Assembly (NCBI RefSeq): GCF_037042905.1
Contig: NC_087245.1
Span: 25,050,001 to 25,114,000 of the forward strand
Length of the DNA stretch: 64,000 nt
Origin: Lytechinus pictus
Taxonomy: Eukaryota
Direction of reading: 5' to 3'
Part shown: in pieces, positions 4,201 through 61,543 of the stretch
Layout: the number at the start of each line of letters is the position of its first letter
How positions within the stretch are numbered: position 1 is the first letter of the stretch
Notes under the pieces: model-generated
What the model was told of the DNA's origin: nothing
Seen by the model: the letters and a program-made list of their open reading frames with translations, nothing else
Database searches by the model: none
Program-made: the position numbers and the translations under genes

Positions 4201-7200
4201 GAAACTCACTAACAGACCTTAATAATGGAGAAATCAAACAAAATGAGAACATCAATATTTCTAAGGGCTTCAAGATATTTCAAGGACATGTATCTCCAAA
4301 ATATCATATACTGAAATGAATACATTCAGAAAAATGATATCAAACCAAAAGAAAACAAATGACTTCAAAATTAATCAAATATATTTGGAAAGAGACTTTT
4401 TAACCAACTTACCAAAGTTTGTGGTAGTAAACATCAACTGAAACTGGCCCAAATTAAGCAATGATATTTCTCATTATTGCCTTTTCTGTAGTTTTTCTCC
4501 TCATTTATTGAATTTCATGATAATAATAATAAGAATAGCCAATTTTTATATAGCGCTTTTCCCAGAATGGCTCAAAGCGCGTTACGGCATATTATTACCC
4601 CGGTCATTGGATTCATTTCAATCCCGCACGAAAAGTGCACAATTTCCACTCCCTGGGGAGCATTCCTTGCATTCATCGCAGCCTCATAATGGCGCTGGCA
4701 AATTTAAACGTACAATATCTTTCGCATCCTACCGGGTACCCATTTAGCACCTGGGTCGAGAGTGGCAAAGTGTGGATTAAAGCCTTGCCAAAGGACGCTA
4801 GACCGCGGTGGGATTCGAACACACGACCCTCTGTTTACAAGGCGAGAGTCAGAACCACTACACCACGGCTCTTCCATGATGAATGTCGCAAATGGTAAAT
4901 GGCCATGATATTCAAAGCTATTCAGTCAACTCATTTTTTTTAGCTGGTTTATGAATACATTTAGAAGTTAACAGGATGCTGTAACACAAAGCATTGCACT
5001 CGATCGTGGAACAAATTTAGCTATTGATTGCATTAAGCAGTGTACAATCACTTGTACGATTTTTTTATGAGACCCAGAGAGTGCTTTTTTTTCCAATAAG
5101 TATTCATGACAAGAACAAATACTTTGCTGCTGTCTGTTGCCACCTGACCAAGAAATTGTCAGAAGCAGATGGTATCTTTAGACTTCAGTAAGTGACAGAT
5201 CTTTCAAGACAGACCATCAAAATATTTTTCCCAATTACCTCCAAATCTGCTGAGAAGATCACCCAAGATGTCTAGGGCTTCCAATTTGACTGACACATCC
5301 TCTTGCTGGAAACAAACAAAAGAAAGAAAATAAAATTTAGTTGTCATTTAAAAATAAATAACATATAATCAACTTCTGATTTTAATTCACAATTCAGCAG
5401 ATTGCATTTTGTAAATGCTATATTGATCAGGGAAAATCAGTTTCTCAAAGATTCTGCTCATTCTGCTGTAAGAATGGGTAAAAATATCTAGGGGAGGGGG
5501 GCGGGGCATACCATAATCTTTCATGAAACCTCTAATATCGACATTCTTCATACTAAGAAAGTGAGAAAGCATACTTACCATGGCAATGGCATTGGTTAGC
5601 CTGCCAGTGATGCTCTTACATATGTTAGCTGCCAAAGGGCTGGAAGCAGGTGGCAGTTCATTGATGACTGTCTTCAGACCTATGTTACAAAATATAAAAA
5701 TAAATCATTTATAACCAATGATTCTAACCTCATTTTTTTTTCCACATGATACATCAATGTTCTTAACCTCATTAATTCTTGAACATCAACATTGTTACAA
5801 TGTTCATGGCTCCATTGGAGATACCGATATCAGGATGTACTTGCTTGAGGACTTCTTTTCATTTTGGGGATATGGACATGTCTCTTTAAAAAAAATTGTA
5901 TATCCATATCAACCCCTCAAATATGAATGAAACCAGAGATAATATTTATCTAATTTCAAGTTGAGCAGTAATATAGACATGCCCAATAGAAAAGTTGCCG
6001 AGCCGTAAAATTATTGTATTTTAAAACCCATAAGTGCTTGATTTAATTAATTGGCAAAATTTAAAAAAGGATAAAATACGTTCCACATTGACCAAGGAAA
6101 CAATGAAATTCTGATAGATCCTTAAATACAGTATGCCAATTAATAGGATGTAAAGGGAGATAATCTTTAAAATTGAAAAAAGTTCTAAAATAATATCTAT
6201 ATAACAACTATTAAGAGAGAATCAAGCGTTGTAAACAACTTTTACAGTCTTTGCCCATCACAGTCATCTTTAGCATGCATGAAACCTATCCTTACCATCC
6301 TATCATATTACCCCACCTTCATCAACTAAAGGGTGTACATGTATGTATGCTCAATTACACTGGCTGTCATAAACATGGTAACAGATACGAGTACATATAG
6401 CTGCATGACAGACATCGCTGTTCACACATAAGCCAGTCAAAACTGTCAGCATAGTACATGGCATGTATACATGGCATGTATGCCAAGTACATGTATTCAG
6501 AAATAAGGTAGTCTCTCAATTTTCTTTTTATTTGAATAAGCAAGTTTTTTGTAACTAAGAATACAAAAATATATTTATTTTTGTGTAATGTGAATGCACA
6601 TGACTCTATTTTCTGCAAGGAGTCTCTCCCACACAAACAAGAAAATAATAAGTCAAGTGTTTTCATATCATCTTACCTAAAACATAAAAATAAATAACCA
6701 AAAACAAGATGGTTAACAAACCACTTGTCTCGCCTCATTTTTGTGATTATTAAAACCTGCAAAATGACCTTTTTACTCCTAGATGACCTTTGCCCTCGCC
6801 ATCTCTATCTCCACAAATGTGATATTACCCAGGAATCATTTGTACCAAGTATGAACGCAATTGATGCAGAAACAAAGAAACGAGAGCAAGTTAAACAAAA
6901 ACTTTTAAATTTTTGTAACAGACTAACAGACCATCAGGAAAACTGATCACTAGGTCTCTGCTGAACTTAGTTCAATCGAGACAAAAAAGAGCTACCAACC
7001 TTACAACAAACATTTCTTTGGGGGGAGGGGGCCTACTTGGTATTTATACCCTTCCTTCAGAGATTGATAGCACTTGGCTTTCCATGTATATCCAAAGAGT
7101 TAATGCTACTTACCAATGCTGGAGATATCTCTCAGTTGTTCTTTATCTGAGAGCATATTGTTACACAGTGTATCCACAATCGTCTCCACTTGGTACTCCT

Positions 7201-13135: not shown

Positions 13136-13995
13136 GTTTATACGGAGAATAGCTTTACATGTACACTATAAACTTTACCATCATTATCACAATGGGCATA
13201 ATTCTTTACATCTGAATTCCCCCTTAATTTGTCTAGGCAATCGCTCGCCAAACTTTACAATATTATTAACAACGTCTATTGGCGTGCAAATGCTACACTT
13301 TCAAACAGTGTCGTAATGAGCCCAAAGGCATTGAGGGGCTAGATATGGCGTATTGGGCAAAATTTATTTTTAATATTTTCAATTTAATAATAAATATCAA
13401 GTTTTGTGATATATTTTTACATAATTTTCAGAAAGTAATATCATATTTCACTCTTCTCTCTTTCCTTTTTTTTTCTTGGTCGTGATTTTTTTTTGGGGGG
13501 ACAAGCATCCCAAGGGCCCCCATCTGTACGCCACTGCTGTCAAAACAAAATAATTAGGTGTATATGAGATTGCTACGCGCGTTCCGTATACCCAATGGTG
13601 ATAACACAAAGCGGTCATTGACCTTTTCCTGTCTGGTGAGTGGTCATCTAATCCCTTCCGGTCGGATTTGAACTTCGACCACTAATTATTTATTCATGAT
13701 GTCATGAGAGAAGACTTCCTTGAAATGACCCCCTGATGAGGAAGAGGCTTGAGAACACATTCCTAGAAAGCAAGGGGGATTCGAGAATCACCGTCATATT
13801 ATTATGTTTTACTCTTTGATTTAAGATAAGAACCATTTACCACGCTGTGTACGTACGACTTGAAACCAAGAAAAGTCACAGCATCAATGACTGTTTTTCG
13901 AGCATTAAAAAAATTAATAGAAAAGTAGAGGCGGTAGCTACTTTTTACGAAAACATTTATGATTGTAGTATAATAGTAGTAGGCACTACTTGTAT

Positions 13996-14754
<759 letters not shown>

Positions 14755-15115
14755 TATAGTAGGCCTAATCATCTTGAAGTATATTGGAAATATAATAAAG
14801 GGAAGAGTAAGAAGAAGACTTGAAGAAAAACTTCCCGCTACTAATAATGCATGAATTTTCAGAAATGAAGGAAGCAGTTAATAGCTTAAAGGAGCAGAAG
14901 AAAGAGAGGAGGAGGCCCGGGAGGAGGAGGATAGAGAAAGCTGAACACGTATATTAATTAGCAGATCAAGGAATTTATATATCGTCTTCTGTTTGTCCAT
15001 GAAATAAGCATCAAAACCCCTTGGCATATGGTAGTTCCAAAATAAACAATCATCTTCTATGCCAATTCTATAACTCAATTCTTTTTATCCGTTTGTCAAC
15101 TAATGTTACTTTCAA

Positions 15116-15647: not shown

Positions 15648-16738
15648 ATGATGGGAGATGAATTTCAGCATGCGGCTGCAGCAACAGACACGACTAACTT
15701 TCTAAAGACAGAACCAGAAGAAAATATTTGCGTTTCTGAAGATGAGAATCTTAATGGTGAATCAACAGATAATATCGTCGATAAATCAGCAGATTCCCAA
15801 AATAAAACGAAATTTGAATTATGCGAGATCAAGTCAAATCTAGAGAATTGTGATGAAAACAGACAGTCTGAGTCACTACAGAGGAATGGACATGGGAACA
15901 CCGAACAGTCATACAGTTTACACGATTTTGGAACCCATCATGATTTGCATGGGAATTTACAGAGGTATTGTCCTCTGTCATCTCTCCAAAACCAGCCTCA
16001 GCAACCGGCAAATTTACCGCACTACCTGTTGAATACTTGCACGGTATCCAACTTCACTGGAATTCCCACCCCGCCACCCGCCACTTCGCACAGTCAACAA
16101 CAGGTGATTCAAAGGACGTCGCCTTTCATAGATGGGTTCCAGCACCTGTCGGGAACACACCAAACCCACCAGCAAATATCCGAAATCGGTACCCCATCAG
16201 GAAATAGCAATGCACTGATCCACCATCTCCATGACACCAATGAGTTTTCAAGTCACGACACAACCGCATCGGGCCGTTGCAGTGCAGATGAAAAATCCTC
16301 AATGCCGATCTGTGCAAGCCACGATCCTATTCACCAAAGGTTGCTACAACAGCCACAACAGTTGCAGGAATTCGACATGAAGAAAGAACTTGAACATAAC
16401 GATGTCCAAGTACCACCATTCTTTGTTGAAAACAAACCACCAATACTTCAGACGACCAGTGCTCCACCACATCAGCTAATTGGCGCCTCTTTGGTTCCGC
16501 CATCACCCCATACCTTCGGTCACCTCCCAAATGGCGCCTCGCAGGACCACGAGGACGAACATGCGAAGGGTGTCGTTCCGAACCATGTCGTCAGCCAGCC
16601 ATACCCTCCACCAGCGGGTCACCAGCACGTCGAGGTCGCCAACGGGCCAGGGAAGGCGTCAGTTTACCTCTGCAACCGCGACCTGTGGCGGAAATTCCAT
16701 CAGCATAATACGGAGATGATTATCACAAAACAAGGAAG
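15648..16738 (+). CDS. tbr: tbr exon 1
   Basis: Long N-terminal ORF ending at the T-box start [15 protein letters not shown]. Confidence 0.94.
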
Positions 16739-18440
16739 GTAAGTAAAATGCAACTTTTAAAAAGCCATGCACCAGCTACAAACACAATGTCATATTTCTC
16801 TATGAAATGAATACTTGTATATTCTACTTCCCTGTGTCACACAAGAAAATAAAACCATTATACTCTTCCCCCGATCATATTGTATTTTACATTGCAAGGA
16901 GTAACGTCAATAAAACCAAAATCCCATTCTTCGTTTTATATCTTTTCACAATTTTATAGAGTGCGTGTCAGGTTATTTTCTTATGCATTATTTATACCCA
17001 AGTTGTATATTTTTGCAAAATATCAAGTAATCTCCCACATAAATTATCAAAATAATCAAAACAATTCGTAGCTTTTTGTAGCTTAACATGCGTAAAATTG
17101 TCTAAATCACTTTAAATTTATTTCAGTGTATGTTTTTAAGGTCAATGAAAAATAAAACATTCTTCTGTTTAATAAATGAATGGCAATCTCTGGAATAAAA
17201 TCTATGAGCGGTAATTGTTGCCACATGTAAGTCTGGCATTCATCATCATCTAGCAAGTTTTCGAATATCCAAAACAACGATTTTTTAAAGGGTATGTCAT
17301 TTTGATAAATGATATTTAACTTCTAGATCGATTTAAGTTAAAGCTACTTTTAGGGCACATTTTTGACAAGGTATGATAAACACACACACAATTTATGGAA
17401 ATTTCTTGATAATTTAACAAAGACGATTTCGACAGATCATTTGGCGTCACCACAAACTACAATAATTTTTGTTCGCGGTCTTTTGAGAAAAATTGATTAA
17501 ACCAGTGATTTAACAAAGGTGGGAAAAATTGAAGGCAAAATTATAAGTTTTCAAAAATCAGAAAGCTTATTCTTTATTGACAATATATATTTGTTTTAAG
17601 AATTTCTTGTGCGGTTATTTTAATATATGCTAATAAAACAATGACACGATAACAACCGCATTCGTGCACATAATTATATTTGATGATACTTTTGAATAAT
17701 GTTCGCCTCCCTATTGGTCTAACGGATTTTTCATTCACATTTTGGAAGTGTTTTTTTTAATGCCACCCAATCATGTTGATAAATGCGTGGTCTCAGACGA
17801 TATGTGATAAAGAATACCAGGAAGGGAATTCTCTCAAATTTCATTTCACAGTATTCATACCCAAAAAATTATTTGTTTTATTTTCACCATGCAAAATATA
17901 CTTGTAGATAAGAATACATAAAGCAAATCATAAACGAAAACAAATGATGGGTAGAGTCCCTGAAATGGAATTATTTTAGGTGAGATACTCTTTTAGATAA
18001 AGCATTAATAATTTTGTTTTCAGAACAGAAACAAGAACTATACATTTATATGAGTAGGATTTTAAAAACCTATGCCGATATAAACCTTATTGATAAATAA
18101 ATCATACATTTTCAACACCCATAAAGCCTTAAAATACCACATTCCTCACCAAAAATGACAGGTATTTGGAAATAATAATAATAATAACAACATTTATAGG
18201 GCGCTTTGTATACGGGTGTTTCAGAGCGCACATGTTGGCTGACTAAAGTAAACAATAAGCCCATTAATTGAATTTTTAAAAAAGTATGCTAGTGTTGAGA
18301 AAATGGGAATTTCGAGTGAGGATTTAAACATTTCAACAGAGGGAGCATTTTGGATATGAGTTGGGAGCTTGTTCCACAGAGTAGGGGCAATAACAGAAAA
18401 AGAGCGATCACCGTATCTCGTCTTTGTGCGAGGGTCAAGA

Positions 18441-18507
<67 letters not shown>

Positions 18508-18759
18508 GTAAGGGGGCCCTCAGCACAACGAGTAGTGCAGGCACTCATCATTTAGTGTAGATAAACTTGGAAGACAGAAATAACGACGAGTGAGACGTAG
18601 CTCTCAGGTTTCCTTTTTTTGCAAGCTTTCGGCCATCATCGGCCTTCGTCAGGCCTACAAAAAAAGGAAATCGGATGGAACGAACATAGTATTTACATAT
18701 ATATAAATTAGGTATAATATTAGGTATACGTCTCAATCATCGTTATTTCTGTCTTCCAA

Positions 18760-18799
<40 letters not shown>

Positions 18800-18971
18800 G
18801 TATATATATATACACTGTAAAAATGGAAGTGCTAATTTAGCACTTACAGTGCTTGTATAGTGACTGCACTATACGAGTGCTGATTTTCTAGTTTAATTTT
18901 GAAAATCAGCACTCGTAGTGCAGTCACTATGCAAGCACTGTAAGTGCTAAATTAGCACTTCATTATTTACA

Positions 18972-19014
<43 letters not shown>

Positions 19015-21380
19015 CTTCATCCATTTCTTTACAATATTTAAATAAAAGAGTTGCCAAAGCTGTTGTACATGTATAACTTTACACATATATATATATATTA
19101 TATATGAAGAGTATATCCTTCACATTTCTTTTCTTTTTTAATGATAAAATATTGATACAATGAAAGTCGTATCATAAACGTATATAAGGGTATTGAATTC
19201 AAAAGCATCGCATAGCTCGTTTGATCATTTTAATTTTACTGAAATGTAAAAATATTCTAGTCAAAACAAAGTTCGTCCAAATGTTTATTTATTTATTTAT
19301 GTATTTATTATCAATTCGGTCATTACAATATATGAAATATGAATTAACAATAAAACAAACAGAACCGTGGGTGGATACATGTATATAGCTTTGATTGAAC
19401 AAAATATCATGGGTTATTCATTCAAAGCCAAAATCTTATCTTTTTTTTCAATTCATATTATCATGTCAACTGATACTTGTAACTGGGACAGATCGTCAAA
19501 TGAAATCATGTGGACTTTTCAGTAATCACATAAGAGATGATTCCATCACTGTGAAAGTCTATGAATGAATTTGAACTCGGAATAGTGTTTACACGATGGC
19601 CACTTAACCGCATGGCGCGTCTAGTTCGGATGTGGAATGTCTATTTTCAGCGTGCACCTGTTTCATCGATCATTGTTGATACCAAGTGGTCATGACGGTC
19701 ATAATCTTTACAAAGCATCCCGATGTGTATGTTCTTAACTCATTACACCTGTAATCAATATTATTCGCTGCTAATTAATTTCCGAGAATCCATTGTACGA
19801 ATATTCAATACATTACAAGTGTGTAGCGTTAAGCCGCTGCGAGGCTTAATAATAAGGTTTTTTTTTTCAAAGAAAGGGGCCTTATGCTCATAATCTTTTA
19901 TTATTATTGGTCTGAATGCAAGCAAACATCATTCTATTTAATGTATGCAGGCCTATTTGAGAACAAGATAAAAACAGATGTTGTTCGACTATTCAGTTCT
20001 TTATTTCCTGAATAGACTTTATTAGGCCTACAGATCTACCTGTACTTTGCTTGCTGCAACAGGGACAGTGTTATATAGGAGGAAAGTAAGTCTGTTCCCT
20101 ATGATTTTGCAAGTAGTGAAAAGGGAGAAAAGTGGAAAAATAAAAGGAAAAAGAAAAAACAGGAGGAAAAAGAAAAAAAAAGTGCATAAGAATGATATCC
20201 TTATTGTTTAGCTCTTTACTGCCCATCTTAAAGAAGACAATTACGTCACTTTTATTTAGTCTTTCCGTGTGAAAATACCGCGTAGCCTCGCTTGGCAGGA
20301 AGTACATTTTAAGAAGAAAATCAATGTAAATAAACAATCTAAAGCTTTTGAAAGCCGTTTATAACTCGATATTATTTACTCGATCAAGAATTTGGAAATT
20401 TCATCATATCTAGGCATTTTTAAATATAAATTGTTGCTTCAAACTGTGGTTTCTTTTTTAAACGTTTGAGAAAATGAAGATTGGTCCAATCATGGACCTA
20501 TGAAGAGATGGACATTCATCGCTTACTTAATGAATTCACTAACAGGTGACTGTAATTGTCCTCTGAATAACATTCTCTTCATACTAGTCTTCTTTGGTTC
20601 CATGATCGTCACCGTGAGAAGGGACGGAAGCAGTTCGTGACTGGACATTTATATTTCACAAATTATATGCGCAATAGACAACAAATCACTTAAATCATGG
20701 CAAATCGATGTGCAGTTCTTTTTTACCTTTGGTAATCTTAGTTCCATGTGTTTTATTTGGGAGAAATGTCTGCATATTTTAATGTAGAGGCAATATTGTG
20801 ATTGATTGTTTACCATTTAAAATTCAATTTCCCAAGTTTCTCCATAATATTCCAAATATACGTGGTACATAACATATATAGATCGTGTATCTCTCAATGT
20901 TATTGAGGTCCTTATGTGTGAGCGGTAGTTAGCGGATCGAATGATATCATATTTTATATCATAAAGATCGTCTGCTTCTCATGTTTGCCGCTCCAAATAT
21001 GAAGCATGTTGACTGAAAGGCTCATGCTAAAACAGGGTATCAGCCAACAAAAATCAAGACCGGGTAACTGTTCCGTCTTTAGGTAATCAGATACGCCTTG
21101 GTAGTCATGGTAATTGCTATTGTTACAACACCTGTATGTTCTCATTAAGATGTGCATAACCAAGCGACGGTGACTATCATTGGACCAAAGAAATGCTCGC
21201 GTTGATAGTCCATCTCTTCATAGGTCCATGGTCCAATCGAGCCGATAGCTAGCATTCACAAACATCACCATTATCAAGAGAACTCAATCTTAGTCAATGC
21301 AATTCATTTCAATTTTATTTCACATCTTTAAAAGCTAGCATACATTCTAAGTATGATATAACATTAACATAATACATAAT

Positions 21381-21427
<47 letters not shown>

Positions 21428-23474
21428 TTTTGTTTTATTTATTTTATACTGCAGGGTAGGCCTGTTCAGTTCTTAAAACTGCTTTACAAAGGCGCCCTGC
21501 AGTTTAAAATACATGTCAAGATAACTATGAACAACAACAACAAACAACATCAAAAATACAAAATACAAAATATCTAACATCAGATGTATAAATATTTTTA
21601 AAAAATGAGGTTTGCTTGTAAGCATGATGGCCCCAACATACAATGTGAAATTAACATTGAAATACTTAAAAAAATATATGTACATTAAAAAATTACATGT
21701 ACAACCCTGTAAAGACACACAATATATAGAAAACAGAAAGAAGAGAGAAGAAGAGACCTCAGATGTACATGTACATTAAGAACAAGTCATAACGAAGAAA
21801 TGAATCGAGATTCTGAATAGAAAATGAGAGGTGAATTTGTAGTACATGAAGGGGAGATGAGGAAGACAATGAGATAAATAGAAGAAGATGAGACACATTG
21901 CATAAATCTTCTCAGCATGCATTCATTCTTTTTATTTTTGGGGGGGTGAAAAATACAATCTCTTTAAGGAAATTTGGAATTTTGAATGAGTTGAGCTTTG
22001 TAGAGTACCATGATCAAGACTATTCCACAATTTGATTATATTGGATACGGAATGAATTTAAGGTCATATAAAAGAGGAAACCTTGGGTTGATGAATTAAT
22101 ATACATTGGCGAGTGTTGTGAACTTGTGAAGTAAACATGTTTGAATTTTTTGGCATTTGTATTTGTACATAGAAATTAGAGAATCCACAAAAATCATATC
22201 AGATATGAATAAATATTCTTTTTTTTTATATGGAAGAGATGAAATAAGTCTAAATTGATATTTTTTCTGCAGTATTATATACTATATTATATTGAGAATC
22301 TCGAAAGATGGCTTTTAAAAGTATACATGTATATGTCCCCATACTGAGTTGCAGTATGTTAGGTGAGGCAAGATAAAGTAATTTTTTTTTTTTTTGGGGG
22401 GGGGATCAATATGAATTCTTGATATGCTTCCTATACACCTTTACACTTTATACTGCTAATATGCGGTTACCGAGATAAATCAATTAGCTGTAAATACCTA
22501 ACACTTGAATATTTCCCACAGGTGATCATGACCATTAGCAAGATTTATAAGGTCTTTTGAACCCTCCTGATCCTTGTTCTGAAAATCATAAATTTTGTAT
22601 TTAATTTATCGAAATTCGAGGAAAGTTTACTACAACAGAACCAAATATATGATTCAATAATTTGTTTATTAGTAATAGACATTAAATCATGATATTATTG
22701 TGAGAAGGTATATACATGTAATGCATGTGTCATCTGGAAATAATGAATCACGAAATAATTCTGATAATTTATCAATTCGTGTATCGTCATCTTCCTCTAT
22801 ATTTCACCACATCAATTATTTTTTATATTTCCTCTTCTTGTTAGTCTTAAAAATGAAAAAATGGACAATACATTCACCCCCTCTCTTCTCGCATAGTCGT
22901 ATACATCATTAACTAAACGACATCGTCTCTTCAATAATTAGCGTATGCCTGATTTTGAACGATTGTAGCTTAGAAATTTTCCGTTAAAGTAGGGGTTTCA
23001 GGATTCATTGAATTTTCTTCAGATGAGCCCACCTCATTTATTTTTTACACATTTCAATCAAGAAGTGTTAATGAATAAAGTCGACTATCTCATTAATTTC
23101 CAATTCAAATCTGAGCGAAGTATATGTATTTCGTTGCGCTGCCTTGTCCACCATCTGGTGTCGCCAATTGAACAATAAACAAGTAAAAAAAATGTCAAGA
23201 GGGTTCTTTGGACGGCGTCGTACATTCTTTCCAGTATCCCCTTATCTTCTTTCGACCCCCACCGCTTTCATCCCCGCCTCACCACGAAATTATATATCTC
23301 TGTTTTACTTTTTTAACTGTTGTATATTGTTTATTTCTTCCAAAATCCCCATTTCTCCATACTCTCGTATTCGATATATTTCAACTCTTTAATCGTGATC
23401 GAAACTTTTAATATCTAACTCGGAACGCTTCCTTTGTTCCTTTTTCTCGCCCCCCCCCCCTCTTTCTCTCCCTC

Positions 23475-23507
<33 letters not shown>

Positions 23508-26500
23508 TATGCTCATTATGTGACTATATTATATCCAGTAACTCGAAAATGGGGGATACATTATTGTATTGATACAATAAGACTTGAATCGCAGTCTGGT
23601 CATGTTTTCTATAAATCAAAATTTCGTTTAAAACTTTGCTGCTTTGTAAAAATAAAAGGGGGGCGCAGTCACTGTCATTTCCCATTTGTCTTAAACTGGT
23701 GAGAATTAACTCTCAAGTCAGTCCAGTCCTGACTAAGTATATATTCTCGTAGTTTTGTATTAAAAAGGGGATCTAAATTCCATTTCTGTTTTTAGGTTCA
23801 TAGATATTTACGTTTTCTTTTTATGAATGGAACGACTTTTTAAATATTTGAGCAATCATACGCGACTTGTAAAATCAGGAACTACGTGAAATATAATTAG
23901 ATTTGTCCTTTTTTTCTTATTTGACTAGTCGCGTTTAGCGACTATGATTACTACATGTATATCACATTTTGAATAAAAAAAGAAATGCGTTGTAACGAGA
24001 ATCTATGTCATAATATCGATGGTATTGAAATATATCACCATAACTTATTTCACATTCTTTCATTATTCAACTCGTGTTTGTATCAAAAAGTGAGACATGG
24101 CGACATTACTCAGGATGCATTAATTGATTCCCAATTGGGTACCAGTATAGACGGCTTGGGCAAATTATGTGCTGTAAATGTGTTTATTGGTAAACAAAAA
24201 CATGACATCCTGTGCTGATAGACAAAGGAAACACGTCAAAGAAGCTCGTGACCATGTACTTTGAACTTGGATTTGTTTTTGTCCGTAGCTCATTGATTTG
24301 TTTGTTCGTCAAAGAATCGGGGAACAGGGGGATTAAAGTTTTGACATATGAGGGTACGTCTGCTCTACCTCTTAACGATGACGAAATTAAAATCAGATGT
24401 TTGAGCTTGTGTCTGAAACATGCTGCAATTTAAAGAAAATCAAACTGGCGTACAGATGGGGAGCGGACTTGGGTGGTCATGCCCCCCTCCCCTCCCTGTT
24501 TCACGACCAAGAAAATGGAGAGAAGGAAAGGAAAGACAACAAAAATGAAATATGATATCACTTTCTGAATCGTATGTCAAATCTATTGAAGAATAAAATA
24601 TGTTTTTGTCTTTTTATTTTTTGTGTCGCATACACCTGTCTGGCCCACTCAATTATTATTATTCTTTATTTATTCATTTATTATTATTATTGTTTTTTTT
24701 TTTTTTGGGGGGGGGGTCATTACGCCACTGCTTTCGGGTCTAGTGTGGCGTCTTAAACCACATTTCCAGCCCATCGTACATGTTTTTTTTTTTTTTTTAA
24801 GCACCGGCGATCGTGTTTTTCTGAATATATATGGAGTTGCATGCAAAAAAAGGAGATGCTGTAAAAGTAGAATGAATAATACAAATATTTATTTTCAGCA
24901 CATCCAGTAAAAAAAAATACACGTCTCGTTGTCTACTTACATATCTTCTCACTATATTGTTAAAAAAAAAACACGGTCGATAGACGAAACCGAGACCGTG
25001 TCTTAATTCCCTGGCGTCATTTAGCTACTAATTCAAAAACCTTGATTTTCTTATTATATTTTAATTTTTCCTATTTCATGCTCTACGCCATATTTTCTTA
25101 TTCATATTTTCCCTGATGCAGGCGCATGTTTCCACAGCTCGTGTTCAAGCTTACCGGTCTCAATCCTACCTCACAATACAACGTCTTTGTTGATCTGGTG
25201 TTGTGTGATCCGAACCAGTGGAAGTTCCAGTGTGGTAAATGGATGCCGTGTGGACAGGCCGAGAACATACCAAAAGGTATTTCACACAAATTCATAGAAA
25301 GAGAGAGAGAGATGATTATTTTTCATACATAGTTTATTATTGCAATATATTTTAAACAAAGGATGATGTGACGTTGTTTCCATCACCATTATCAGCAGCA
25401 TAGTTGTAATCAACATCACTATTGTCATCATCATCATCTTCATTATATTTATCACCATCGCGTTCATTATTGTCGACATCATCATCGTCGTCACCATGCA
25501 TTTTCTTCATTACCATCACTATCTTCATGTACAACTGGAAAGGAAATCTTATCATCATCGTCATCTTCACCGTCATCGTTGTCGTCACTATACAGTGTTC
25601 TTCGGCATCATTTGATACACTTCCATGCTATGAAAGCACGGAACAATAGATTTGGTCCGCTGAACCCTATCGTCCTGTGCCAAATAGCGTTATTTATAGA
25701 TTTAAAAAAATATACCGCGGGATATTGACAGTCACCTACATCTCCATTATCATCGCCAACATCACAAACCATGCAGAGACGTTGATCCGGGGGGGGGGGG
25801 GGGGCGATCACCCCTCCCTCCTTGCTCCCCAATAATTTTGACAACTTAAATATTAATAATACGCAACGCAATTGCAATTGATGTAGTTGATACACATCAT
25901 AAAGATGAATCCGAATCAACATCCTCCTTCATCAACAATTTGTCATTAAAAAAAATGAGTCCAATTAAGAAATAATCCGTAACTTAATTAAATTTTAGTT
26001 ATGTTTCAAACGAAAACCTTGCTTGCGTAAACGATAAACAATAATTATATATGACGAATATAGCCTATAACATAGAATCATTCTTTCTTTCATTCTTTGC
26101 GTTTCTAGTAAGCAACATCTATCTTCACCCTGATTCGCCAAGTAATGGACTACATTGGATGCATCAGGACATCGTATTCAGTAAACTCAAACTGACCAAT
26201 CATCGGGGAAAAGACAATGGATTTGTGAGTACTCTTTGTTATAAAGTTTAATTTCCCACATTTTCGTAAATATTGAATACGGCATTTTTTGTTCATTTCT
26301 ACAATTTATTTACCAAATCTTCATTTTTGTTCCTTATTTTCCGTGAATGTACAATAAAGACATAGGCCCGTATTCTGAAGTCGGGTTTAACTTATACCAT
26401 GGTCTAACTCTGTGCTAAAATTATTGGAAGCCAAAAGTGTCTATTTTTTTGTATGTTTCTTATGTTTACTATGCTCTTTCCTGATTCATCGATGGTGAAG

Positions 26501-35763: not shown

Positions 35764-36041
35764 TCAAATACTGTTTTCATGATCAAGGCTCGGTTCGATT
35801 TCAGGCACATCCGGCTTATCCGTATCCGAATCATTGTGTGCAGCCGGTTCGTAAAACCGAAGCGCCAGCGAATAGAAGAGCACCGTTAGAAGATTGCAAA
35901 CAAGCGCAAGTATTGCTAGTTTCCAGGACAGGCTTTTGTTGTCGTACAGCCAGCATGCACCTCGTTCACCACACGTTTCTTGCCATTGTACACATGTACT
36001 GTCAATGATGACACCGAACAAAATGTTGCCTGGAATGACGC
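35764..36041 (-). CDS. SLCO coding exon 10 (to stop)
   Basis: VIPGNILFGVIIDSTCVQWQETCGERGACWLYDN...DHENSI*. Confidence 0.94.
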
Positions 36042-39000
36042 CTAAATACGAAGACAAAAAAATATTCATAGTTATCGAGACTATTGTGCAATGGTATGAA
36101 TATTCAAAATGTATATCGACCATCAAAGCTATATACTGTATACCAACAATAGCTTGTCAACATATTGCACTCATGAAAAATATAATTCCTTTAATGAAAT
36201 GACATTTAGATCAAATATCTAAATCATTTTGGAACCAAAATAATTAATATCGAAAATTTTTCCCTCCTCCAATTTATACAACCGCCGTATTCCAGTCCCA
36301 TTTTCGTTAGTGCAAGTATATCCTTTTCATATCCTGCTTGAACTACTTGTATCTTGATTATTTTTACATTCATGTGCACCAGAGTCGATAATGATTAAAC
36401 TGAATACGCTTAAAAAAAAAATTAAAAACAAGCATCCATATCCTATTTATTGTTCATTAGCTAAAGGCCGTCATATGATTTACAGTCAATTCCCTTATCA
36501 ATATCATTCACGAAAGATTATTACTTCATTCTTATGCTTGCTTTTCAATTCTTATTCACTCTCTTGCCTTTCAATTTCTAATACCAACTGCCCTTTTTAA
36601 GACTTTCTACACGGTGAACGTTATTATCCTCTACATAAAAAAGTAATTTTTTTTTACTCATTTTCCAAAAATTATGAAAACTTGGGTCCATTGAAAAAAA
36701 AGATAAATTATTATCTTGGTATCTACCATGGTGACATGGCTCAGCCGATCCAAACCTTCGCTTTCATGGTAGTTATTATACTGACAAGTTTACCACAATG
36801 GATGAACATGGCCCTTTGAAGACTTACCAAGTGTTCTGGCCACAACAGAATTCATTCCTAGAGCTACTGGTCGTTCATGCTCGGCAACACACCTATAATG
36901 AAACATAATAAGTAGATTTTAGTAGCGCATCATGAAAATGATATTGTGTACATCCCCGACTTGGTTAGGTTTTGATAGTTTATTTGGCCAAAGCGTTAGA
37001 TATATTATGAGTGGTCATCTGGACGATTTAGCCACCGTACGGCACGCAGTTTTACCATGAAAACATATTTTATTTTAATAAAAAAATTATTTGTTGGTAT
37101 ATACTGTATATATATATAGTATATACCAACAAATAATTTTGTATAATATATATATATATATAAAGAATTAACAAAAATAAAACGTCCGATAAAAGATCTT
37201 TGACCGAAATGTCAACAAAATAGACCGTTTGCATGTTTTTTCTTTTTTGACCTTGTTGTTTGCCGCTCAACTCACCAACGCAGAACTGTTTTGATTTACA
37301 TTGATTTGAAACATCATTGGCACCTGTCAATATTCTGCTCAAAACAAAATACCTAACTATACAAAACATACAATTTTTTCATTTGAGGACATTATGTATA
37401 CATTCTTACCTGAAAACTATGTTCATCAGAGGCACTTTACCCATGAATATGGCGACTAATACTATATTCATTATAACAATGAATGCAGGTAAGAGATTAC
37501 ATGGTGTGGAGCATTTCCCGTGGTGAACAGTACCCAACATTCCAGAGCTAGCCATTGGAGAACAGACGCAACCAGCAAACGTCTGTCAAAGATAATAAGA
37601 ACGACGGATATTGGTTGATTTAGAGTTCTCCGGGTCTAAAGGTACCGGGTTCGAGTTGATGTAGCTCTGTATTAATATACCGGCTCTGTAACCTAGTAAT
37701 CTTTTTGTACCACTAATTATGTCGACGGTTAGTCAGACTTGACTACCAAGGGTACAAGCACGGATCTTGGTAAAAATGACTAACATTCTTTTCCAAATTA
37801 CTGTATATCAGATGATCCCGCGTGTACCAAAGCTCGTCTAGTCCAAACTTACACAGTATTCAATCATGGTATCGGTCAATTTTACAATTTAGTACGCTAA
37901 TTTGCCTAGATACCCTATTTAGACACTGTTAGGGTCTGTTACACAAAATTCATTGATTAATATTACTATAGGATTGATTTTATAATGATTAACTGTATTG
38001 ATAATTATATGCGAGTAACTGTAAAAATAAAATGTCGCTAAGCTTTTTGTTACAGGACGTAGAACCATAAAAGTCAATATAAAATTCTGATAATGTTCAG
38101 AATTTGAAGATTACATTTCGAGAAAACATGGTAAAAAAATATACCTTTCACTTTATCATGTCACATCATGTCATATATTACGTTACGTTACATTTCATTG
38201 CCAAATAATTTTTTTATAAATGAGCTTTACAGCTGGAATATAGTCAATATTTAGTCTTTTTTTTTGCGCCGTTACATGTAACTTTACAATCCACTTTATG
38301 AACTGCAGTCCCCTTGTTATCTTACACCATTCCCAAGATCTTGGCTGCATCCCGCGTGACAGGGGCTAAAGAAGCTGAGGCCGGTTTCTTCCATACACAC
38401 TGGCTTAAACTTATCGACAGAACAGGAACAGGCTTGGTTGCATGGGGACGTCAAGTCGAGAAGACTAGATCTGTATTTCATCGATCAAGAGAGTGGTGGA
38501 GATATTGGACGGTAGGGAGAGAGAGGGGGGGGGGAGAGAGAGGGGTGAGAGGGGGAGAGGGGGGAGTAAGAGAGGAGGTGAGGAGGTGAGAATGAAAGAC
38601 AGGAGAGAACGGGGAAGAGTAGAGGGGGATGAGTAGTTGGGGGAAGAGAGAATGAAATAACAATTGTCCTTGATAATAAATCTGCGATAAAGTTAAAGTT
38701 ATATTTCCACTTTTATTGTAACCATTTGTTCGTGACATCATCATTATCACCACCACCTTATTTATCATAATCATCATCAGCAGCATCAGAAGCTGTATCA
38801 TCATCTTCTCCATCATTATCATTATAATGATCATTATCAGCATCGTTATTCTTCTTCATCATACATTTCCACTAGATTTAAAAAAAAAGTTTAAATCACG
38901 TACAAATGAAATTAAGATAGCCATCCATTATTAAACAGTCGGTAAAGATTTTCACAACCGTCCTATACACTCACCCATTGCTGTACGCGGTTGTCACCCC

Positions 39001-42000
39001 TGCTATCCGAGCCTGCGGACAATGCATGAAAACACCAAGGAATGCGATGGTTTCGATGGTGCTCCCTACGATGGCAAGCTTGATAAGACCCGGGACCTTC
39101 AGTTTCCATCGCTTCATCACCCATCCTCCTAGAAACGTCCCTAAGACAGATCCGGGGATCACTGCGATACCTGAATGGATGAAATATGTATCACAGAAGA
39201 TTCGGCTTGAATGTCACCTTTCTAGATTTGTCAGACATAATTATTGAGCATCTTCGAAATTATTCTACAATTCAAGTAATTATTTTACTTTTAGTAGTTG
39301 GAGGTCCTATCGCAGAATGTGCCGGAAAGTAAATCAAACAATGATGTCCAGAAACTAATGGATCTCACACGGAAAGAACTATTGATATCAATAAAAGAAC
39401 GCAAACTCTCATATTATGGCCATACTAGAAGACACGAATCTTTGTCAAAGAAATCATGGAGGGAAAGATTGAAGGCAAAGAGGAAGAGATGACAGGCAGA
39501 AAGATAAACGAATGCTGCAATATAGCACTGGACAGAGACAGATGGTACATCATGACATCCAACCTCTTTAAAGAGAAGGAACAGCCGTAAGGTAAGTTAA
39601 GTTGGAGGAATATTTCGGAAAATGTGTGATTTGTTAGGTATGACGGAGATAAATGGAAGTAGATGTTGATAATGATGATGATGTGGTAGGTGTTATGTTG
39701 GTGATGGTAGCGGTGATAGTGTCGGAGGTAGTGGCAAAGGTGGTAATTATGGCGGTGGTGGTGTAAGTTGCTGTCATTATTTGGATGATCGTAACTTCGG
39801 TCGACGTGGTGGCGGATTTTGACCGTGGAACTGAGGGTTGAGAATACGCATCTTGGCTAGTTATTTTGGTAAGTGATATAGTGGGTGGTGCCATTGTCTG
39901 TTGTGGTTGCAGTGATTGTGATGTCTACAATGTGGTCGTCATGTGGTGATAGTGTCGGAGGTAGTGGTGGCGGTGTTAATGGTGGTATTTGTGCCGGTGG
40001 TAGCGTATGATGATGGTGGCGATGATGATACTAGTGGCGTCGATGATATGTATTTAGGTAAATTGAGCGATACTGATGTTGCTATAATGGCGGTGACAGT
40101 GTCACTTAGTAATAGGTACGGTCGTGGTGGTGGATTGACCGTGGAATCGAGGATTGATGATATACTTTGTAAGTCATTTCGGTAGGTGATACATCGGTGC
40201 AAATGGGGCTATCCGGACTTTTCGCATTTACTACGGGAAAATTCTCTACAAACGCACCAATACCTTTGAAAATACAAGTCAAATCACAATGGAGAGCTGA
40301 GAGGCTTTTCTCGAAAGTTGGTGGACCAGTGGAGGCGGAAGTGATCAATTGTGTTTGATGGTGTCGTGTTTTGGGGTGTACTTGTGTAGGATTTGACTAA
40401 CCTGTAATGATGGTAGCCATGCTCGATGTCACCATGAATTGATTCTCGAGGAGTTTAGGCAAGAAAGCGGCAAAGGAGTTGATGAGGAGGATATCGGGGA
40501 CGGTCGAACATACAGTGAAGACATAGGTAGGGTTGATAGCCAGGTGTTTCAGAATCTTCAACACACCCTTGATCTCCTGGACTAGACGAGACGACTCGCT
40601 GCTGGACTGTCCTGGGTGCCCACCTTTGTGTAGGCCAGAGTTCTTGTGAGACTCCACAGGCTTCTCAGTTCGGATTTTAGCAGTTTCTTTCGTTACACAC
40701 AAAGGTTTTGGATAGAAAATTCACAAATAAAGAGTGATTGCATTATTTTCAAAATGATACAATAGAATTAGTATCACAAATGTGAAATAAATCACAACCA
40801 TAAAAATAACCAAACAGTTCATAACACATTTTTAAACTGACATTTCTGAAATAATATTGTTTCTTTCCTCTAAAATAAAATCAGGTATATTTACCCCTTA
40901 TCAAGCTTGCTCATTATTTGGTTATTTTAATTGCAGCAGTGCACTTGAAGAACAATAAAAACTTAAATCAGTAAAAGCTTTATTAAACATCATTACTTTT
41001 CTTGTATGGTATTACAATTATACGTATACATTTGTTTATTGCTGGCTAACTCACTTGGTAATTCCCTAGGGAAGAGTCCGATGGGTATAGAGAGTATGAT
41101 GATGACTAACCCGGCCACGATGAAGCCTAACCACCAAGCACCCACCCAACCAGGATCTGATGGAGATACAGACACTCTGATGACAAAGTAAAAAACAAAT
41201 TATTTAATGTGCATTATTGTGCATTAGATTGAAAATCTCAATCTAAGATTTAGAACGCAACCTTTTTTCAATCTTATTTTGGATTGGTCTTCAATTCAAT
41301 CAATCTCTCAATGATTTGTTTCAAATCAATGGAATTTTGAATTTTATTCAATTTGTGTAAAAGAGCGAATCTGCAGCCGTCTTTTTTTAACGAGTGAATA
41401 TAATTTCACTCTCAACTGAGTTGAATTCTACTCGCCTTTGATTGTCATTGACGATATACTTTCAACCATTCATTCTCAATCTTTCAAAGAGTGAGCCAAG
41501 TCATTGTTAAAATAAAACGAGATAAATTTTTATTATAATGACCCGATTCGAGCTATTAGTGTATAGTATTTTGAAGATATAGTATTCGCTTTGATAACAT
41601 AATATTTACTCATCGAGCATTATTATTATCGGTGCACATTAATGAATTGAACAATTTGCAATTTGTTTTGTCTTTTACACTTACCACGGAAACTAATTAA
41701 ACGAAAGGAATTTGCTAAACTTTCATTTACACCCATCAGAGAACAATAATGAAATGAAATTAAAATCCAGTCCATATTTTATTGTTCTAAATAGACATGA
41801 AATGAAATAGTCTGAAAATTTGCTTTTCCCAATTGATCGCTGGCCCGGCAACCGCTGTGCAGCGCCAGGTCGACGAGGCTCTATCCCTAATTGTTGAACG
41901 CCAAACAGGGTAGCAGCAACTCCCATCTTCTAACGTCTTTTGGTCTGACGCGGCCAGGTTTTGAACCCCCGACCTCCCGGTTGTGAGACGGACGATCTAC

Positions 42001-45000
42001 CAACTGAGCCAACACATTGGTCAATAAACAATATAATGGTGTCATACGGATGTTATAAATCACATGCAGAGAATATCACATGAATAACATTATTGTCCTT
42101 ATTTCCTTTTGGAACTCCAGAACAAATAGAGATCGAAACTGTAATATTGTTACATACAGATATTAAGAATTGAAATGAAACGAATTACCCGGGCGGCATT
42201 TCAATATCTGTATAGATGTTGAGGAAGAAGCCAGCTAGAAGATATCCGATTGCAGTTCCAAAGGTTGCCATGGTGAAACATGTACCTGTAAAGAGTTGCC
42301 ATGGTGATATTCATTTCAATATCCGCTTAAAAACAAAGCTCTATCAATAAAATGTCGCCAATTTGAACTGATCAATTAAGTTAGAGTGAGGCCTGCATCG
42401 CACTACTCATCTATTTCAATTTCAGCTAAGTTGCGGTGAATCGACAAAAAGGCAACACATTAGATTTTATTTATGGGGTAAAGGGAGATTCCACTGAACT
42501 TGCACGTGATTGCAGTTACCAAAGGGCGCATTCGCTTAGGCTGGGTTCACATAGAAATATACGGTATACGGTATTCTCTATTCGCTATTCGCTATTCTCT
42601 ATACGGGCATGGCGGGTCACATAAAGGTAGCACGCGTGTCCTACTTTAATATTCAAAATGGATACTTCAGACGAAGAAGATTTGGCTCTTCTCCTACTGG
42701 CCGAGGCTGAGGAGGTACATATGAAGAAAAGAAGAACGGTACGGGTACGACAACACTTCCAAATGCGACCTGTGTTGGGGGAGTTCCACACAACATTTAA
42801 AAATTGTGATAGATCACCCTGATGAGAAGGTGTTTTTTAACTACATGAGGATGTCGTACGACAGCTACAAAGGTTTAAAAGACCTGATTTTGCCCCACAT
42901 CCGTCCCATTAGATCAAACTGGAGGAAACCGATATCAGGAGAAGAGAAGCTTCTTTTGACGATCAGGTGAGTGAAACAAATAGGCCTAACAAGTGAGTAC
43001 GTGAATAAAAAAAACCATTAGTCATAAGTTGTGATGCTACATAGCAGAACTAATGTTTTATTAGACATGTACCAAACTTCTATATGAATGCAAGTTGACC
43101 CAACTCAATCTGATTATAAAATTGACCCAACTCCATGACTCCCCCCCCCCCCAAGAAACTGAAATTTTACGGTTACAAAAAGTAAGCATAGAGACTGCTG
43201 TTCTGATGCAGTGTTGTGTATCATGATGAAATTATAATGTTATTAAACAAAATATAATCAGTTTAATTGATTTACCCGAAATTTCAAGGTAAAAAAAGAC
43301 AGAACGAAAAATGCAGAGCCCACATAAATCATACAGCATGTGCATGAGATAAACTCTGAAGTGCTGGATAACTTACATATGACGGCCATGTGCTATGAAA
43401 TTCCAACAAAATGAGTACCAAGAAATCATTTCATTTGAACTTACCTCATTTAACCAACGCACACAGTAAATATTATAGGGAAATTCAGAACACCACCTGC
43501 CACGTCTGTATACGCTGCACGAAAATCTAACAAGTACGATTCCCACTATTACCGTGTTTACACTTAATCGGCATTTGAATCGGCTCGCGGTTCTGAACCG
43601 CGAGCCGATTCAGCATCGGCTTTTTCATAGCGTGTAAACGCGAGCAACTTGAATCGGCTCGCGGTTCAGAACCGGCAATTTGCACCACCAAAGTAGTAGG
43701 TTCTGAACCGCGAGCCGATGCAGAATCGGCTTTTTTACTACGTGTAAACAGAAAGCCGATTCTGCACCGGCAATTTGTGCGCATTTCAATTACTTTAGCA
43801 TTGTGACGTAATTGTAAGCGCACTGATCCAGCGTCGTCTTTATTATGACGTATATTGTAGGTATGCGTATCATTTCAGGTTTTTGCATCGGCTCGCGGTT
43901 CTGAACCGCGAGCTGTAACAACGTGTAAACGCAATCCAAATGCCGATTCTGCATCGGCATTTGGTTCAGAACCAATTGCCGATTAAGTGTAAACACGGTA
44001 TATACTATACTATACGCAGCTATACGGCATTTTCGTATAGTGCCCTCTCATGTGACCCGGTATTAGGAAATCCTATTGTTCGATTCAAGCTATTCGCGTG
44101 CCCTCGAAAACGTGCACCGTATACCCGAATAGTATACTTCTATGTGAACCCAGCCTTATAGTCACGTTTTCCAATGTGCTGGACACTAGACGATTAAAAT
44201 ATCGGCACATAGGCTGTTAAATACTTTCAATAACCTCCATCAAAGACCCTTTTCTATAAACTACAATGAGATTGTAATACTTTGTAGTTGACCTAAGCTA
44301 ACCAAATTACAAATCACCGGTACGGAGACTCAACAACGAGAGGCCACAACTTCAATAAAGTAACAAAATAAAAATAAAAACGTTTCAACACTATATTTAG
44401 ACAGCATGCTTTTTAAGAAGTAATGTGAATAGTTGGATGCTCTGCCAAATGAAGTAGTCAATGCTGCCACCTTTAACTACTTAACGTCATCCCTAGACAG
44501 GTATTGGCACAATAATCCAATCACGTTTGACCAATATTTGAGAAAGGACGGAATAGTAAAGGGGGATAAATGAGCTAGCTTCAAGTCTCTGTATACACCC
44601 AAGCATAAACAAGTAAAAAAGTGTGCCTTTATATCCAAAATACTGCATCTTTCCATAGTCTCCTATATCATGACTAATGTTTTAATATTTACATGGACTT
44701 GTTTCTGAAGTAAGTATATATTCTCTTTATTTATAAGACATGTATTCTTTCCTACATCGTGCCCGAAATCACACAAGAAACACACACATACCATCGCACC
44801 CTTTCCTTAAAACTTACTTAAGTACATTCCATTCTGTTTGGTCGTGATGCTCTCATCGAGGAACACAACCCCGAGGCTACCCGGAGGTGTTGCCCCTATT
44901 CCCGCTATAACTTTGGCTGCTCCAAAGAGAATGATATATTTTGATAATGACAAACTGCTCTTTCCGCTCCGTTGACAACCATCAGGCGAAGATGTTGACG

Positions 45001-61438: not shown

Positions 61439-61543
61439 ATAGACATCGCGCCGCCAACATCGTTATGTTTGGATGTTGCTCTAGATTGATTATATTTTTT
61501 TCTCCACTTTTGTTTGCCTATTCCTTGTAGACGAAACCCTGAA

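What the first reader, a model, noticed from the sequence alone, without database searches (positions are those of the whole stretch)
18506..18761. Hammerhead-ribozyme-like motif in a (TA)n-flanked element inside tbr intron 1
Seen on the minus strand: CUGACGA (18652-18646), stem II GGCC/GGCC, GAAA (18630-18627), a self-complementary AAGCUU in place of stem III and a CUU triplet. A 2-bp proximal helix and a perfect 12-bp distal helix I follow, all nested in a 35-bp inverted repeat and bounded by (TA)n. Established: Penelope-like elements and retrozymes carry such minimal type I hammerheads that cleave as dimers. Deviation: one extra A lies between CUGACGA and stem II. Predicted cut between 18623 and 18622. 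It is antisense to tbr, so it should not cleave the tbr pre-mRNA. Inference: terminus of a microsatellite-targeting PLE or retrozyme-like family.
Basis: partly seen in the sequence, partly recalled or inferred. Interest (0 to 1): 0.7.

Follow-up and report, generated by a model that had tools for sequence, protein, structure and literature searches.

The report
Penelope remnant with predicted locked hammerhead
A 256-base insert in the first intron of a sea-urchin T-brain gene carries a textbook minimal hammerhead-ribozyme motif and is likely the broken-off end of an ordinary Penelope-like jumping gene, but here the motif is predicted to be folded shut by a likely splice site right beside it, which would link splicing to self-cutting.

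Summary
The motif is real (1 descriptor hit in the window, 0 in 1,500 shuffles) and fits the published minimal hammerhead of Penelope-like elements (PLEs). The 'extra A' is part of that consensus, not a deviation. The insert belongs to a multi-copy family in two organisms whose coverage falls towards the 5' end. The 35-bp inverted repeat is a short second copy joined head-to-head, the known PLE pattern, not a terminal repeat. It is antisense to tbr, has no partner motif in the window, and is likely inert. The scan already reported several such PLE ends in this genome.

Its 5' strand looks like a strong 3' splice acceptor ending exactly at helix I; without that strand the canonical register is predicted to return. 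Splicing and cleavage are untested, and most of the lock follows automatically from an acceptor at that place. New member of a known kind; interest 0.3.

The parts
15648..16738 (+). tbr (T-brain) first coding exon, host gene context
   Evidence: 91% identical to Lytechinus variegatus T-box protein; T-box start found by Pfam; GT donor at 16739
16739..25121 (+). tbr first coding intron, which holds the insert
   Evidence: tblastn exon chain and acceptor at 25120-25121
18442..18505 (.). (TA)32 run, left flank
18506..18728 (-). Main copy: 5'-truncated terminal (pseudo-LTR-like) fragment of a PLE-type repeat family
   Evidence: Family reads and contigs cover 18506-18728 and continue in other sequence beyond 18728 in runs of both organisms; coverage falls towards 18728
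18506..18564 (-). 59-nt 3' extension ('tail'-like), present at this end only; holds an ATG at 18551 with 15 open codons (possible ORF start, untested)
   Evidence: Absent from the inverted arm; other copies end near 18571, 18561 or 18534-18538 (tables 7, 8); translation
18565..18599 (-). Inner arm of the inverted repeat (ordinary family sequence)
18609..18622 (-). 3' strand of helix I (GC plus A-rich run); predicted cut between 18623 and 18622
18623..18630 (-). GAAA box, GC palindrome, U16.1 and U17
   Evidence: fits consensus GAAAN-palindrome-NU-H of PMC4209133 supplement
18631..18644 (-). Stem II (4 G-C pairs, G10.1-C11.1) and 6-nt loop
   Evidence: pair probability 0.98
18645..18652 (-). 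CUGACGA box plus the extra A (CUGANGAH consensus)
18653..18654 (-). 5' strand of the 2-bp proximal helix I; G18654 would be the first exon base after splicing
18655..18670 (-). Likely 3' splice acceptor (pyrimidine tract + UAG); also the 5' strand of the predicted 18-bp locking helix with 18626-18609
   Evidence: 14 of 16 pyrimidines, 75 nt free of AG; shifted helix -28.2 vs -17.9 kcal/mol; inferred, no spliced read seen
18707..18723 (-). Two CTAAT branch-point-like motifs (18723-18719, 18711-18707) within a partial 12-nt duplication
   Evidence: the CTRAY consensus is recalled, not from a call
18724..18729 (.). 6-bp palindrome at the inversion junction, with 2 nt (18727-18728) shared by both copies
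18727..18761 (+). Inverted, 5'-truncated second copy (35 nt), joined head-to-head
   Evidence: 2 differences in 35 from the inner arm; zero depth at 18731-18761 in 4 of 4 runs, and a different inversion junction in another copy
18761..18812 (.). TA-rich run, right flank

Best explanation
The insert is likely a 5'-truncated end (pseudo-LTR) of a Penelope-like retroelement family that was likely pasted into a TA microsatellite together with a short inverted second copy, and it carries that class's minimal hammerhead motif, which in this copy is predicted to be folded shut and likely does nothing to tbr. Steps. (1) Shown: motif, orientation, TA flanks, inverted 35-nt fragment, junction palindrome. 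(2) Shown in public runs: a multi-copy family in two organisms with variable 5' and 3' ends and a second, different inversion junction. (3) Inferred from known PLE biology: the element's RT/GIY-YIG protein nicked the target and reverse-transcribed from the 3' end; synthesis stopped early and a second short copy was joined in reverse. (4) Inferred: in the parent RNA the motif could cut only as a dimer, through the 4-bp AGCU palindrome, between 18623 and 18622. (5) Predicted: the U-rich strand is the 3' end of the pseudo-LTR intron, as in Drosophila Penelope; while it is present it pairs in a shifted register over the cut site, so unspliced RNA stays uncut. Whether the parent is autonomous, and its clade, were not determined.
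For: Class: every feature of the published consensus is met; sea-urchin PLE motifs with the same CUGACGAA box are listed there. Same core and stem II in 23 metagenome loci (21 of 23 from one assembly, so few independent families; they are other families, sharing only about 30-48 nt with the window). Helix I was not in the search pattern, yet 19 of 23 have 3 or more adjacent pairs in the canonical register, with different pair types. 3 of 23 have PLE-type ORF remains upstream on the same strand: L006 (309 open codons ending 26 nt before the motif; Pfam GIY-YIG E 0.0018, below the curated cut-off), L002 and L018 (tblastn E 9e-30 and 3e-9 to L006). Family: 53 contigs laid in run X2; summed depth 322-914 over 18515-18658, 162-177 at 18668-18694, 44 at 18722-18730, 0 beyond, against 10.7-12.5 for four long single contigs (the tool warns depth is no copy number). 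Inverted 5'-truncated copy plus a one-sided tail, and TA preference, are described for PLEs (PMC8557442); palindromes at head-to-head junctions too (PMC3846280); three relatives show fold-back inversions around the motif (L014, L016, L021). In X2, substitutions touch 1 of 25 core and stem positions against 17 of 76 others (one-sided Fisher p 0.029). One deep contig has C at position 17 and a G-U pair at 2.2-1.2, both compatible with the motif (phase inferred from equal depth). Acceptor: among 6,667 AG sites in the window, 47 have as pure a tract, 26 also Y at -3, 10 also 40 or more AG-free bases, 1 also CTRAY (thresholds set after seeing the site); the D. virilis intron ends at helix I; by my eye count 18 of 43 rows of the supplement's alignment have YAG within 8 nt of the core (rows not independent).
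Against: No RT or endonuclease ORF is linked to this family: tblastn of the L006 protein finds nothing in the window at E<=10, and no genome is held. Rfam gives no hammerhead match. The canonical pair 2.1-1.1 has probability 2e-7 in the window copy and the active dimer is 24.7 kcal/mol above the shifted dimer, which argues against cleavage as written; nearest-neighbour energies ignore core tertiary contacts. The Fisher test left positions 17, 1.1 and 1.2 outside the core set (17 and 1.2 vary) and did not count a 10-nt deletion at 18629 in 2 contigs; one copy has G12 changed. No covariation could be seen in stem II (fixed by the search pattern in relatives; invariant in the family). No target-site duplication can be read in TA runs. 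Three listed copy ends have non-TA flanks. No spliced read or intronless copy appears among the rows shown (4 loose ends and 47 pieces were not shown), and the donor-like GTAAG motif 26 nt beyond 18721 rests probably on one contig.
Confidence: 0.85

Rival explanations
1. A monomer of a non-LTR retrozyme: a tandem 150-450-nt repeat that is cut by its hammerhead into monomers, circularised and re-inserted.
For: Size of about 250 nt, no ORF, hammerhead motif; retrozymes are proposed to derive from PLE ends (bioRxiv 10.64898/2026.07.22.740005). The family's 5' end was not seen, so a short non-autonomous element is not excluded.
Against: Single copy in 64 kb; no joints in 4 of 4 runs and the loose end at the 3' terminus is TA-rich, not a next unit; coverage falls towards the 5' end; the motif is the minimal PLE type, whereas retrozymes carry canonical type I motifs (PMC7229834).
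Confidence: 0.07
2. A miniature DNA transposon (MITE) with 35-bp terminal inverted repeats and a TA target that happens to carry a hammerhead-like sequence.
For: 35-bp arms 94% alike, TA flanks; a real fold-back MITE-like element sits 50 bp away in the same TA run (18813-18974).
Against: One arm is 59 nt inside the element; family sequence runs on past 18728 instead of entering the outer arm in runs of both organisms; another copy inverts at a different place (18563 to 18665).
Confidence: 0.03
3. The copy has been co-opted by the host as a regulatory element of tbr (enhancer, antisense RNA or pre-mRNA hairpin).
For: It lies in the first intron of a developmental regulator; either strand can form a long hairpin from the 35-bp arms (minus strand folded).
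Against: The copy differs from family reads at few positions and shows nothing that sets it apart from other copies; no piece in the four runs spans the whole insert; nothing found in print by one search.
Confidence: 0.03
4. The hammerhead-like motif is a chance match inside some other repeat.
For: No Rfam match; the catalytic fold is not the predicted one.
Against: 0 hits in 1,500 shuffles; same core beside PLE ORF ends in other animals; full match to the published consensus.
Confidence: 0.02

Closest known systems
Minimal hammerhead ribozymes (min-HHR) in pseudo-LTRs of metazoan Penelope-like elements (Cervera and De la Pena 2014, PMC4209133)
   Same: CUGANGAH box with the extra nucleotide, G10.1-C11.1, GAAA + 2-nt palindrome + UH, short helix I, U-rich 5' and A/U-rich 3' flanks, mostly found as single dispersed motifs from truncated elements.
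   Different: Stem II is 4 bp (5 with a G-U), shorter than in many listed motifs; a continuous 18-bp shifted helix covers the cut site, which 0 of 23 relatives have. No ORF link shown for this family.
Drosophila virilis Penelope pseudo-LTR (intron ending at hammerhead helix I)
   Same: 2-bp helix I directly behind an intron end; short 5'-UTR intron in the pseudo-LTR (75 bp there); here an acceptor-like site ends exactly at helix I and an intron of roughly 93-105 nt is inferred.
   Different: Splicing is shown for Penelope, only predicted here. No lock of the cut site by the intron strand was seen in the passages read.
Canonical endonuclease-positive PLE insertions (Penelope/Poseidon, Neptune, Nematis) and Naiads (Craig et al. 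2021, PMC8557442; Arkhipova et al. 2013, PMC3846280)
   Same: 5' truncation, inverted truncated copy at the 5' end, one-sided tail, palindrome at the junction, insertion in (TA)n.
   Different: Tail-like extension is 59 nt here against 30-40 bp reported; Naiads lack canonical hammerheads; clade cannot be assigned without the ORF.
Animal non-LTR retrozymes (PMC7229834; bioRxiv 10.64898/2026.07.22.740005)
   Same: Short, non-coding, type I hammerhead.
   Different: No tandem array, no circular junction, minimal rather than canonical motif.

Membership tests
PLE minimal hammerhead (min-HHR) | Core boxes CUGANGA and GAAA | tested here: met
PLE minimal hammerhead (min-HHR) | [quoted passage not shown] | tested here: met
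   A18645; feature named in PMC4209133
PLE minimal hammerhead (min-HHR) | Helix II closed by G10.1-C11.1 | tested here: met
   18644-18631, probability 0.98
PLE minimal hammerhead (min-HHR) | Palindromic 15.2-16.2 instead of helix III, then U16.1 and H17 | tested here: met
   A-GC-U then U; AGCU duplex -2.5 kcal/mol
PLE minimal hammerhead (min-HHR) | Helix I adjoining the core | tested here: inconclusive
   2 pairs are possible, and 2-bp helices occur in published motifs, but the shifted register wins by 10 kcal/mol; canonical pair probability 0.77 without the 5' U-rich strand, 0.36 with the tail included
PLE minimal hammerhead (min-HHR) | Self-cleavage as a dimer | not testable with these tools
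   Needs in vitro transcription; 13 RNA reads gave no power
Rfam hammerhead families | Covariance-model score at or near gathering threshold | tested here: not met
   No hammerhead family at E<=10
Penelope-like elements (endonuclease-positive) | RT plus GIY-YIG ORF linked to the pseudo-LTR | not testable with these tools
   No genome held; none in the window; present beside the same core in 3 of 23 loci of other families
Penelope-like elements (endonuclease-positive) | Dispersed multi-copy family with 5' truncation | tested here: met
   53 contigs, coverage falling towards the 5' end, variable 5' junctions
Penelope-like elements (endonuclease-positive) | Inverted truncated copy at the 5' end and one-sided tail | tested here: met
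   described in PMC8557442
Penelope-like elements (endonuclease-positive) | Retained spliceosomal intron in the pseudo-LTR | tested here: inconclusive
   Strong acceptor-like site, donor-like motif in one loose end, no spliced read seen
Penelope-like elements (Neptune/Naiad type) | Preference for (TA)n targets | tested here: inconclusive
   This copy and one contig end in TA-rich sequence; three other listed 3' ends do not
Non-LTR retrozymes | Head-to-tail tandem units, each with a hammerhead | tested here: not met
   One copy in the window; no joints in 4 of 4 runs, though the reference lacked the family's 5' part
Non-LTR retrozymes | Abundant circular RNA | tested here: inconclusive
   13 reads in two RNA runs, no back-joints; too few to decide
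MITE / non-autonomous DNA transposon | Terminal inverted repeats at fixed ends in all copies | tested here: not met
   Inner arm is not terminal; outer arm not shared by family pieces; other copy inverts elsewhere

The most novel reading that the evidence does not exclude
A splice-gated ribozyme: in this PLE family the intron's 3' splice site and the hammerhead's cut site lock each other in one 18-bp helix. Unspliced RNA stays both unspliced and uncut and serves as the transposition template, while splicing removes 16 of the 18 pairs and frees the ribozyme. This would give one physical reason for two open puzzles, why PLE copies keep their introns and what their hammerheads are for.
Probability: 0.12. 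Interest if true: 0.65.

Novelty: new member of a known kind. Interest (0 to 1): 0.3.

Why it matters
As filed, it matters little: minimal hammerheads in truncated PLE ends occur by the thousand in animal genomes, sea urchins included (PMC4209133), and this scan has reported several others from the same genome. The one point of value is a cheap, sharp test. The significance of intron retention in PLEs is called unknown and hammerhead function unclear in PMC8557442, and uncut RNA was the main insertion substrate for an anole PLE in vitro (PMC11167929). This family offers a 60-nt RNA in which removing the likely intron strand is predicted to flip the fold from closed to cleavable, so one gel and one RT-PCR would show whether splicing gates the ribozyme.

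Tried and rejected
No genome is held for this window, so copy number, orthologous site and the parent ORF could not be examined. Rfam scans: no hammerhead. Pattern scans of viral and prokaryotic collections: 0 matches each. The metagenome scan found none of this family, only other families with the same core. No RNA holder was listed by the run search; this is no evidence on expression. Two raw RNA runs gave 3 and 10 reads, no pile-up of ends and no joints, nearly all with the first mate on the minus strand, which under the usual stranded protocol means host transcripts running antisense to the ribozyme: too few to test cleavage, splicing or circles. The pair count (3 of 3 helix I pairs with two-sided change, 0 of 500 shuffles reaching the score) used 11 of 23 loci that I chose for an intact helix I, so I rely on the unselected 19 of 23. 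The z-score of -12 for the whole insert comes mainly from the copy-specific inverted arms and says nothing about the ribozyme. A second loose motif at 8965 (minus strand, 3-bp stem) fails the descriptor. Protein-atlas search of the 73-aa frame left of the TA run: only unnamed clusters, weak; Pfam none. Family variants were judged pair by pair by eye and were not folded. I considered that the insert is the 5' part of the LINE-like fragment to its left and rejected it: the family ends at 18506 in TA. Lunse et al. 2017 is not held; I know it only as cited in PMC6765202. Not-in-print claim for the splice lock rests on two searches and passages only; most subscription papers and supplement file 1 of PMC4209133 were not seen.

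Full report
Observation. A descriptor built on the published consensus hits once in the 64-kb window and never in 1,500 dinucleotide shuffles. The insert lies between TA runs at 18442-18505 and 18761-18812. The host gene is a T-brain gene on the plus strand, 91% identical in its first exon to the Lytechinus variegatus protein, with its first coding intron at 16739-25121, so the motif is antisense to tbr and cannot cut its pre-mRNA. Rfam does not recognise it.

Class of the motif. [quoted passage not shown] The consensus there has U-rich and AU-rich flanks, and its rows include sea-urchin motifs with the same CUGACGAA box, 2-bp helix I (Culex, three Drosophila species, Oikopleura), a GC palindrome with U17 (Chrysemys) and many U17 sites. 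So nothing in the core deviates. Such motifs showed no cleavage as monomers and low cleavage as dimers. A metagenome scan for the same core and stem II gave 23 loci, 21 from one assembly; they share only about 30-48 nt with the window. Helix I was not in the pattern, yet 19 of 23 have three or more adjacent pairs in the canonical register, with several pair types. Three of 23 have PLE-type ORF remains upstream on the same strand; L006 has 309 open codons with a weak GIY-YIG match ending 26 nt before the motif. The window holds no such ORF.

The element. Twenty public runs of two coded organisms hold part of the stretch. Laying four runs shows a family: 53 contigs in DNA run X2, summed depth 322-914 over 18515-18658, falling to about 165 at 18668-18694, 44 at 18722-18730 and 0 beyond, while four long single contigs have depth 10.7-12.5. 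Depth is not a copy number, but tens of copies and a fall towards the 5' end of the ribozyme strand is the natural reading. In runs of both organisms the family sequence continues past 18728 with letters not in the window, where the window instead turns into an inverted copy of 18565-18599 (2 differences in 35) across a 6-bp palindrome. Another copy inverts at a different place (18563 to 18665; X1 record 2). Copies end at 18506, near 18534-18538 and near 18561-18571. This is the PLE pattern of a 5'-truncated copy, an inverted truncated copy at its 5' end and a one-sided tail (PMC8557442 passages), with a palindrome at a head-to-head junction (PMC3846280 passages), and it rules out a terminal inverted repeat. 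TA targeting is only partly borne out: one contig ends in TA-rich sequence at the same 3' end, three other listed ends do not. No head-to-tail joints were found, which speaks against a retrozyme (definition from PMC7229834 passages, and part 1 of 5 of bioRxiv 10.64898/2026.07.22.740005). Substitutions in X2 touch 1 of 25 core and stem positions and 17 of 76 others (p 0.029); this left out positions 17, 1.1 and 1.2 and a 10-nt deletion through the core in 2 contigs, so it is weak evidence of constraint.

The fold. Sliding the proximal pairing by 4 nt gives one continuous 18-bp helix, -28.2, that pairs the palindrome, U16.1 and U17; U17 is paired with probability 0.996. The active domain-swapped dimer is -34.9 against -59.6 for the shifted one. 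None of 23 relatives has more than one pair in that register. These energies omit tertiary contacts, but a 10 kcal/mol gap argues that this RNA is closed. In the family the six proximal 5' bases show no change in X2; the distal helix carries indels; one deep contig has C17 and a G-U at 2.2-1.2, which by eye breaks one shifted pair.

A likely intron end. The 5' strand of that helix is a pyrimidine tract followed by UAG, ending exactly before the first base of helix I. It scores like or above the true tbr acceptors: 14 of 16 pyrimidines, 75 nt without AG, two branch-like motifs; 47 of 6,667 AG sites in the window match the tract, 10 also Y at -3 and a 40-nt AG-free zone (thresholds post hoc). 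The D. virilis Penelope intron ends at helix I, is 75 bp and is partly retained (PMC2377424 passages). By my eye count 18 of 43 rows of the published alignment have YAG within 8 nt of the core (rows are related, and the PDF columns may be off). A donor-like GTAAG lies 26 nt beyond 18721 in one loose end of X2, which would make an intron of about 93 nt, or 105 with the 12-nt duplication (probably one contig). Folding the stretch from 18654 on, without the strand, restores the canonical pair to probability 0.77 (0.36 with the tail) and drops the shifted one to 0.005; the true upstream exon was not available. Against a selected lock: once an acceptor YAG abuts this helix, three of the four extra pairs form automatically and the fourth has a chance of 0.18; relatives in the metagenome set lack such an acceptor (7 of 23 have any AG within 14 nt, none with 12 or more pyrimidines); and no spliced read was seen.

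Mechanism and verdict. Most likely (0.85) this is a dead-on-arrival end fragment of a PLE-type family, inserted by target-primed reverse transcription that stopped early and added an inverted stub; this step is inferred from the literature, not shown. In the parent the motif would cut only as a dimer and, if the fold prediction holds, mainly after splicing. For an anole PLE, cleavage was not needed for insertion and uncut RNA was the main substrate (PMC11167929 passages), which fits but does not prove such gating. Published explanations of intron retention that I saw are an antisense template and a splicing-dependent gain in expression; a structural lock was not found in two searches or those passages. 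RNA data were too thin to test anything (13 reads). Earlier notes of this scan describe several other PLE ends with minimal hammerheads in the same genome, none with look-alike sequence; I did not check them. Class: new member of a known kind. Interest 0.3; the splice-gated reading has probability 0.12 and would deserve 0.65.

Noticed in passing
window 18813-18974: A 162-bp fold-back element (89% self-complementary, ends CACTGTAAA) sits in the same TA run, flanked by TA on both sides; it looks like a MITE of a DNA transposon. Single copy in the window.
   Followed up: partly
window 18166-18441, minus strand: A 73-aa open frame ending near a short (ATT)n-like tail resembles, from memory, the C-terminus of a CR1/L2-type LINE ORF2, i.e. 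a truncated LINE 3' end abutting the left TA run. Pfam and the protein atlas did not name it.
   Followed up: partly
window 18551-18506, minus strand: ATG ATG followed by 15 open codons up to the element's 3' end; could be the start of the parent ORF, as PLE tails overlap the ORF start in PMC11167929. Too short to search.
   Followed up: partly
window 18708-18728: A partial 12-nt tandem duplication that holds the two branch-like motifs; the family appears polymorphic for it (loose ends behind 18721 and behind 18728).
   Followed up: partly
L014:663-845, L016:836-978, L021:3874-4081 (oriented coordinates): An unrelated PLE family in a metagenome assembly shows fold-back head-to-head pairs around the same hammerhead core.
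   Followed up: partly
PMC4209133 supplement file 2: 18 of 43 listed minimal hammerheads have YAG within 8 nt upstream of the core by eye count, in fish, frog, snake, insects and nematode rows; an intron end beside the motif may be common beyond Drosophila.
   Followed up: partly
window 13965-14762: An 800-bp (GTA)n-type trinucleotide array about 900 bp upstream of the tbr coding start.
   Followed up: no
window about 35764-45304, minus strand; 61490-62284, plus strand: Further exon-like open frames: pieces resembling, from memory, an organic-anion transporter (SLCO-like) gene on the minus strand, and a 264-aa frame on the plus strand.
   Followed up: no
window about 4554-4898 and 50737-51048: Two related repeat copies on opposite strands, seen as similar translated frames.
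   Followed up: no
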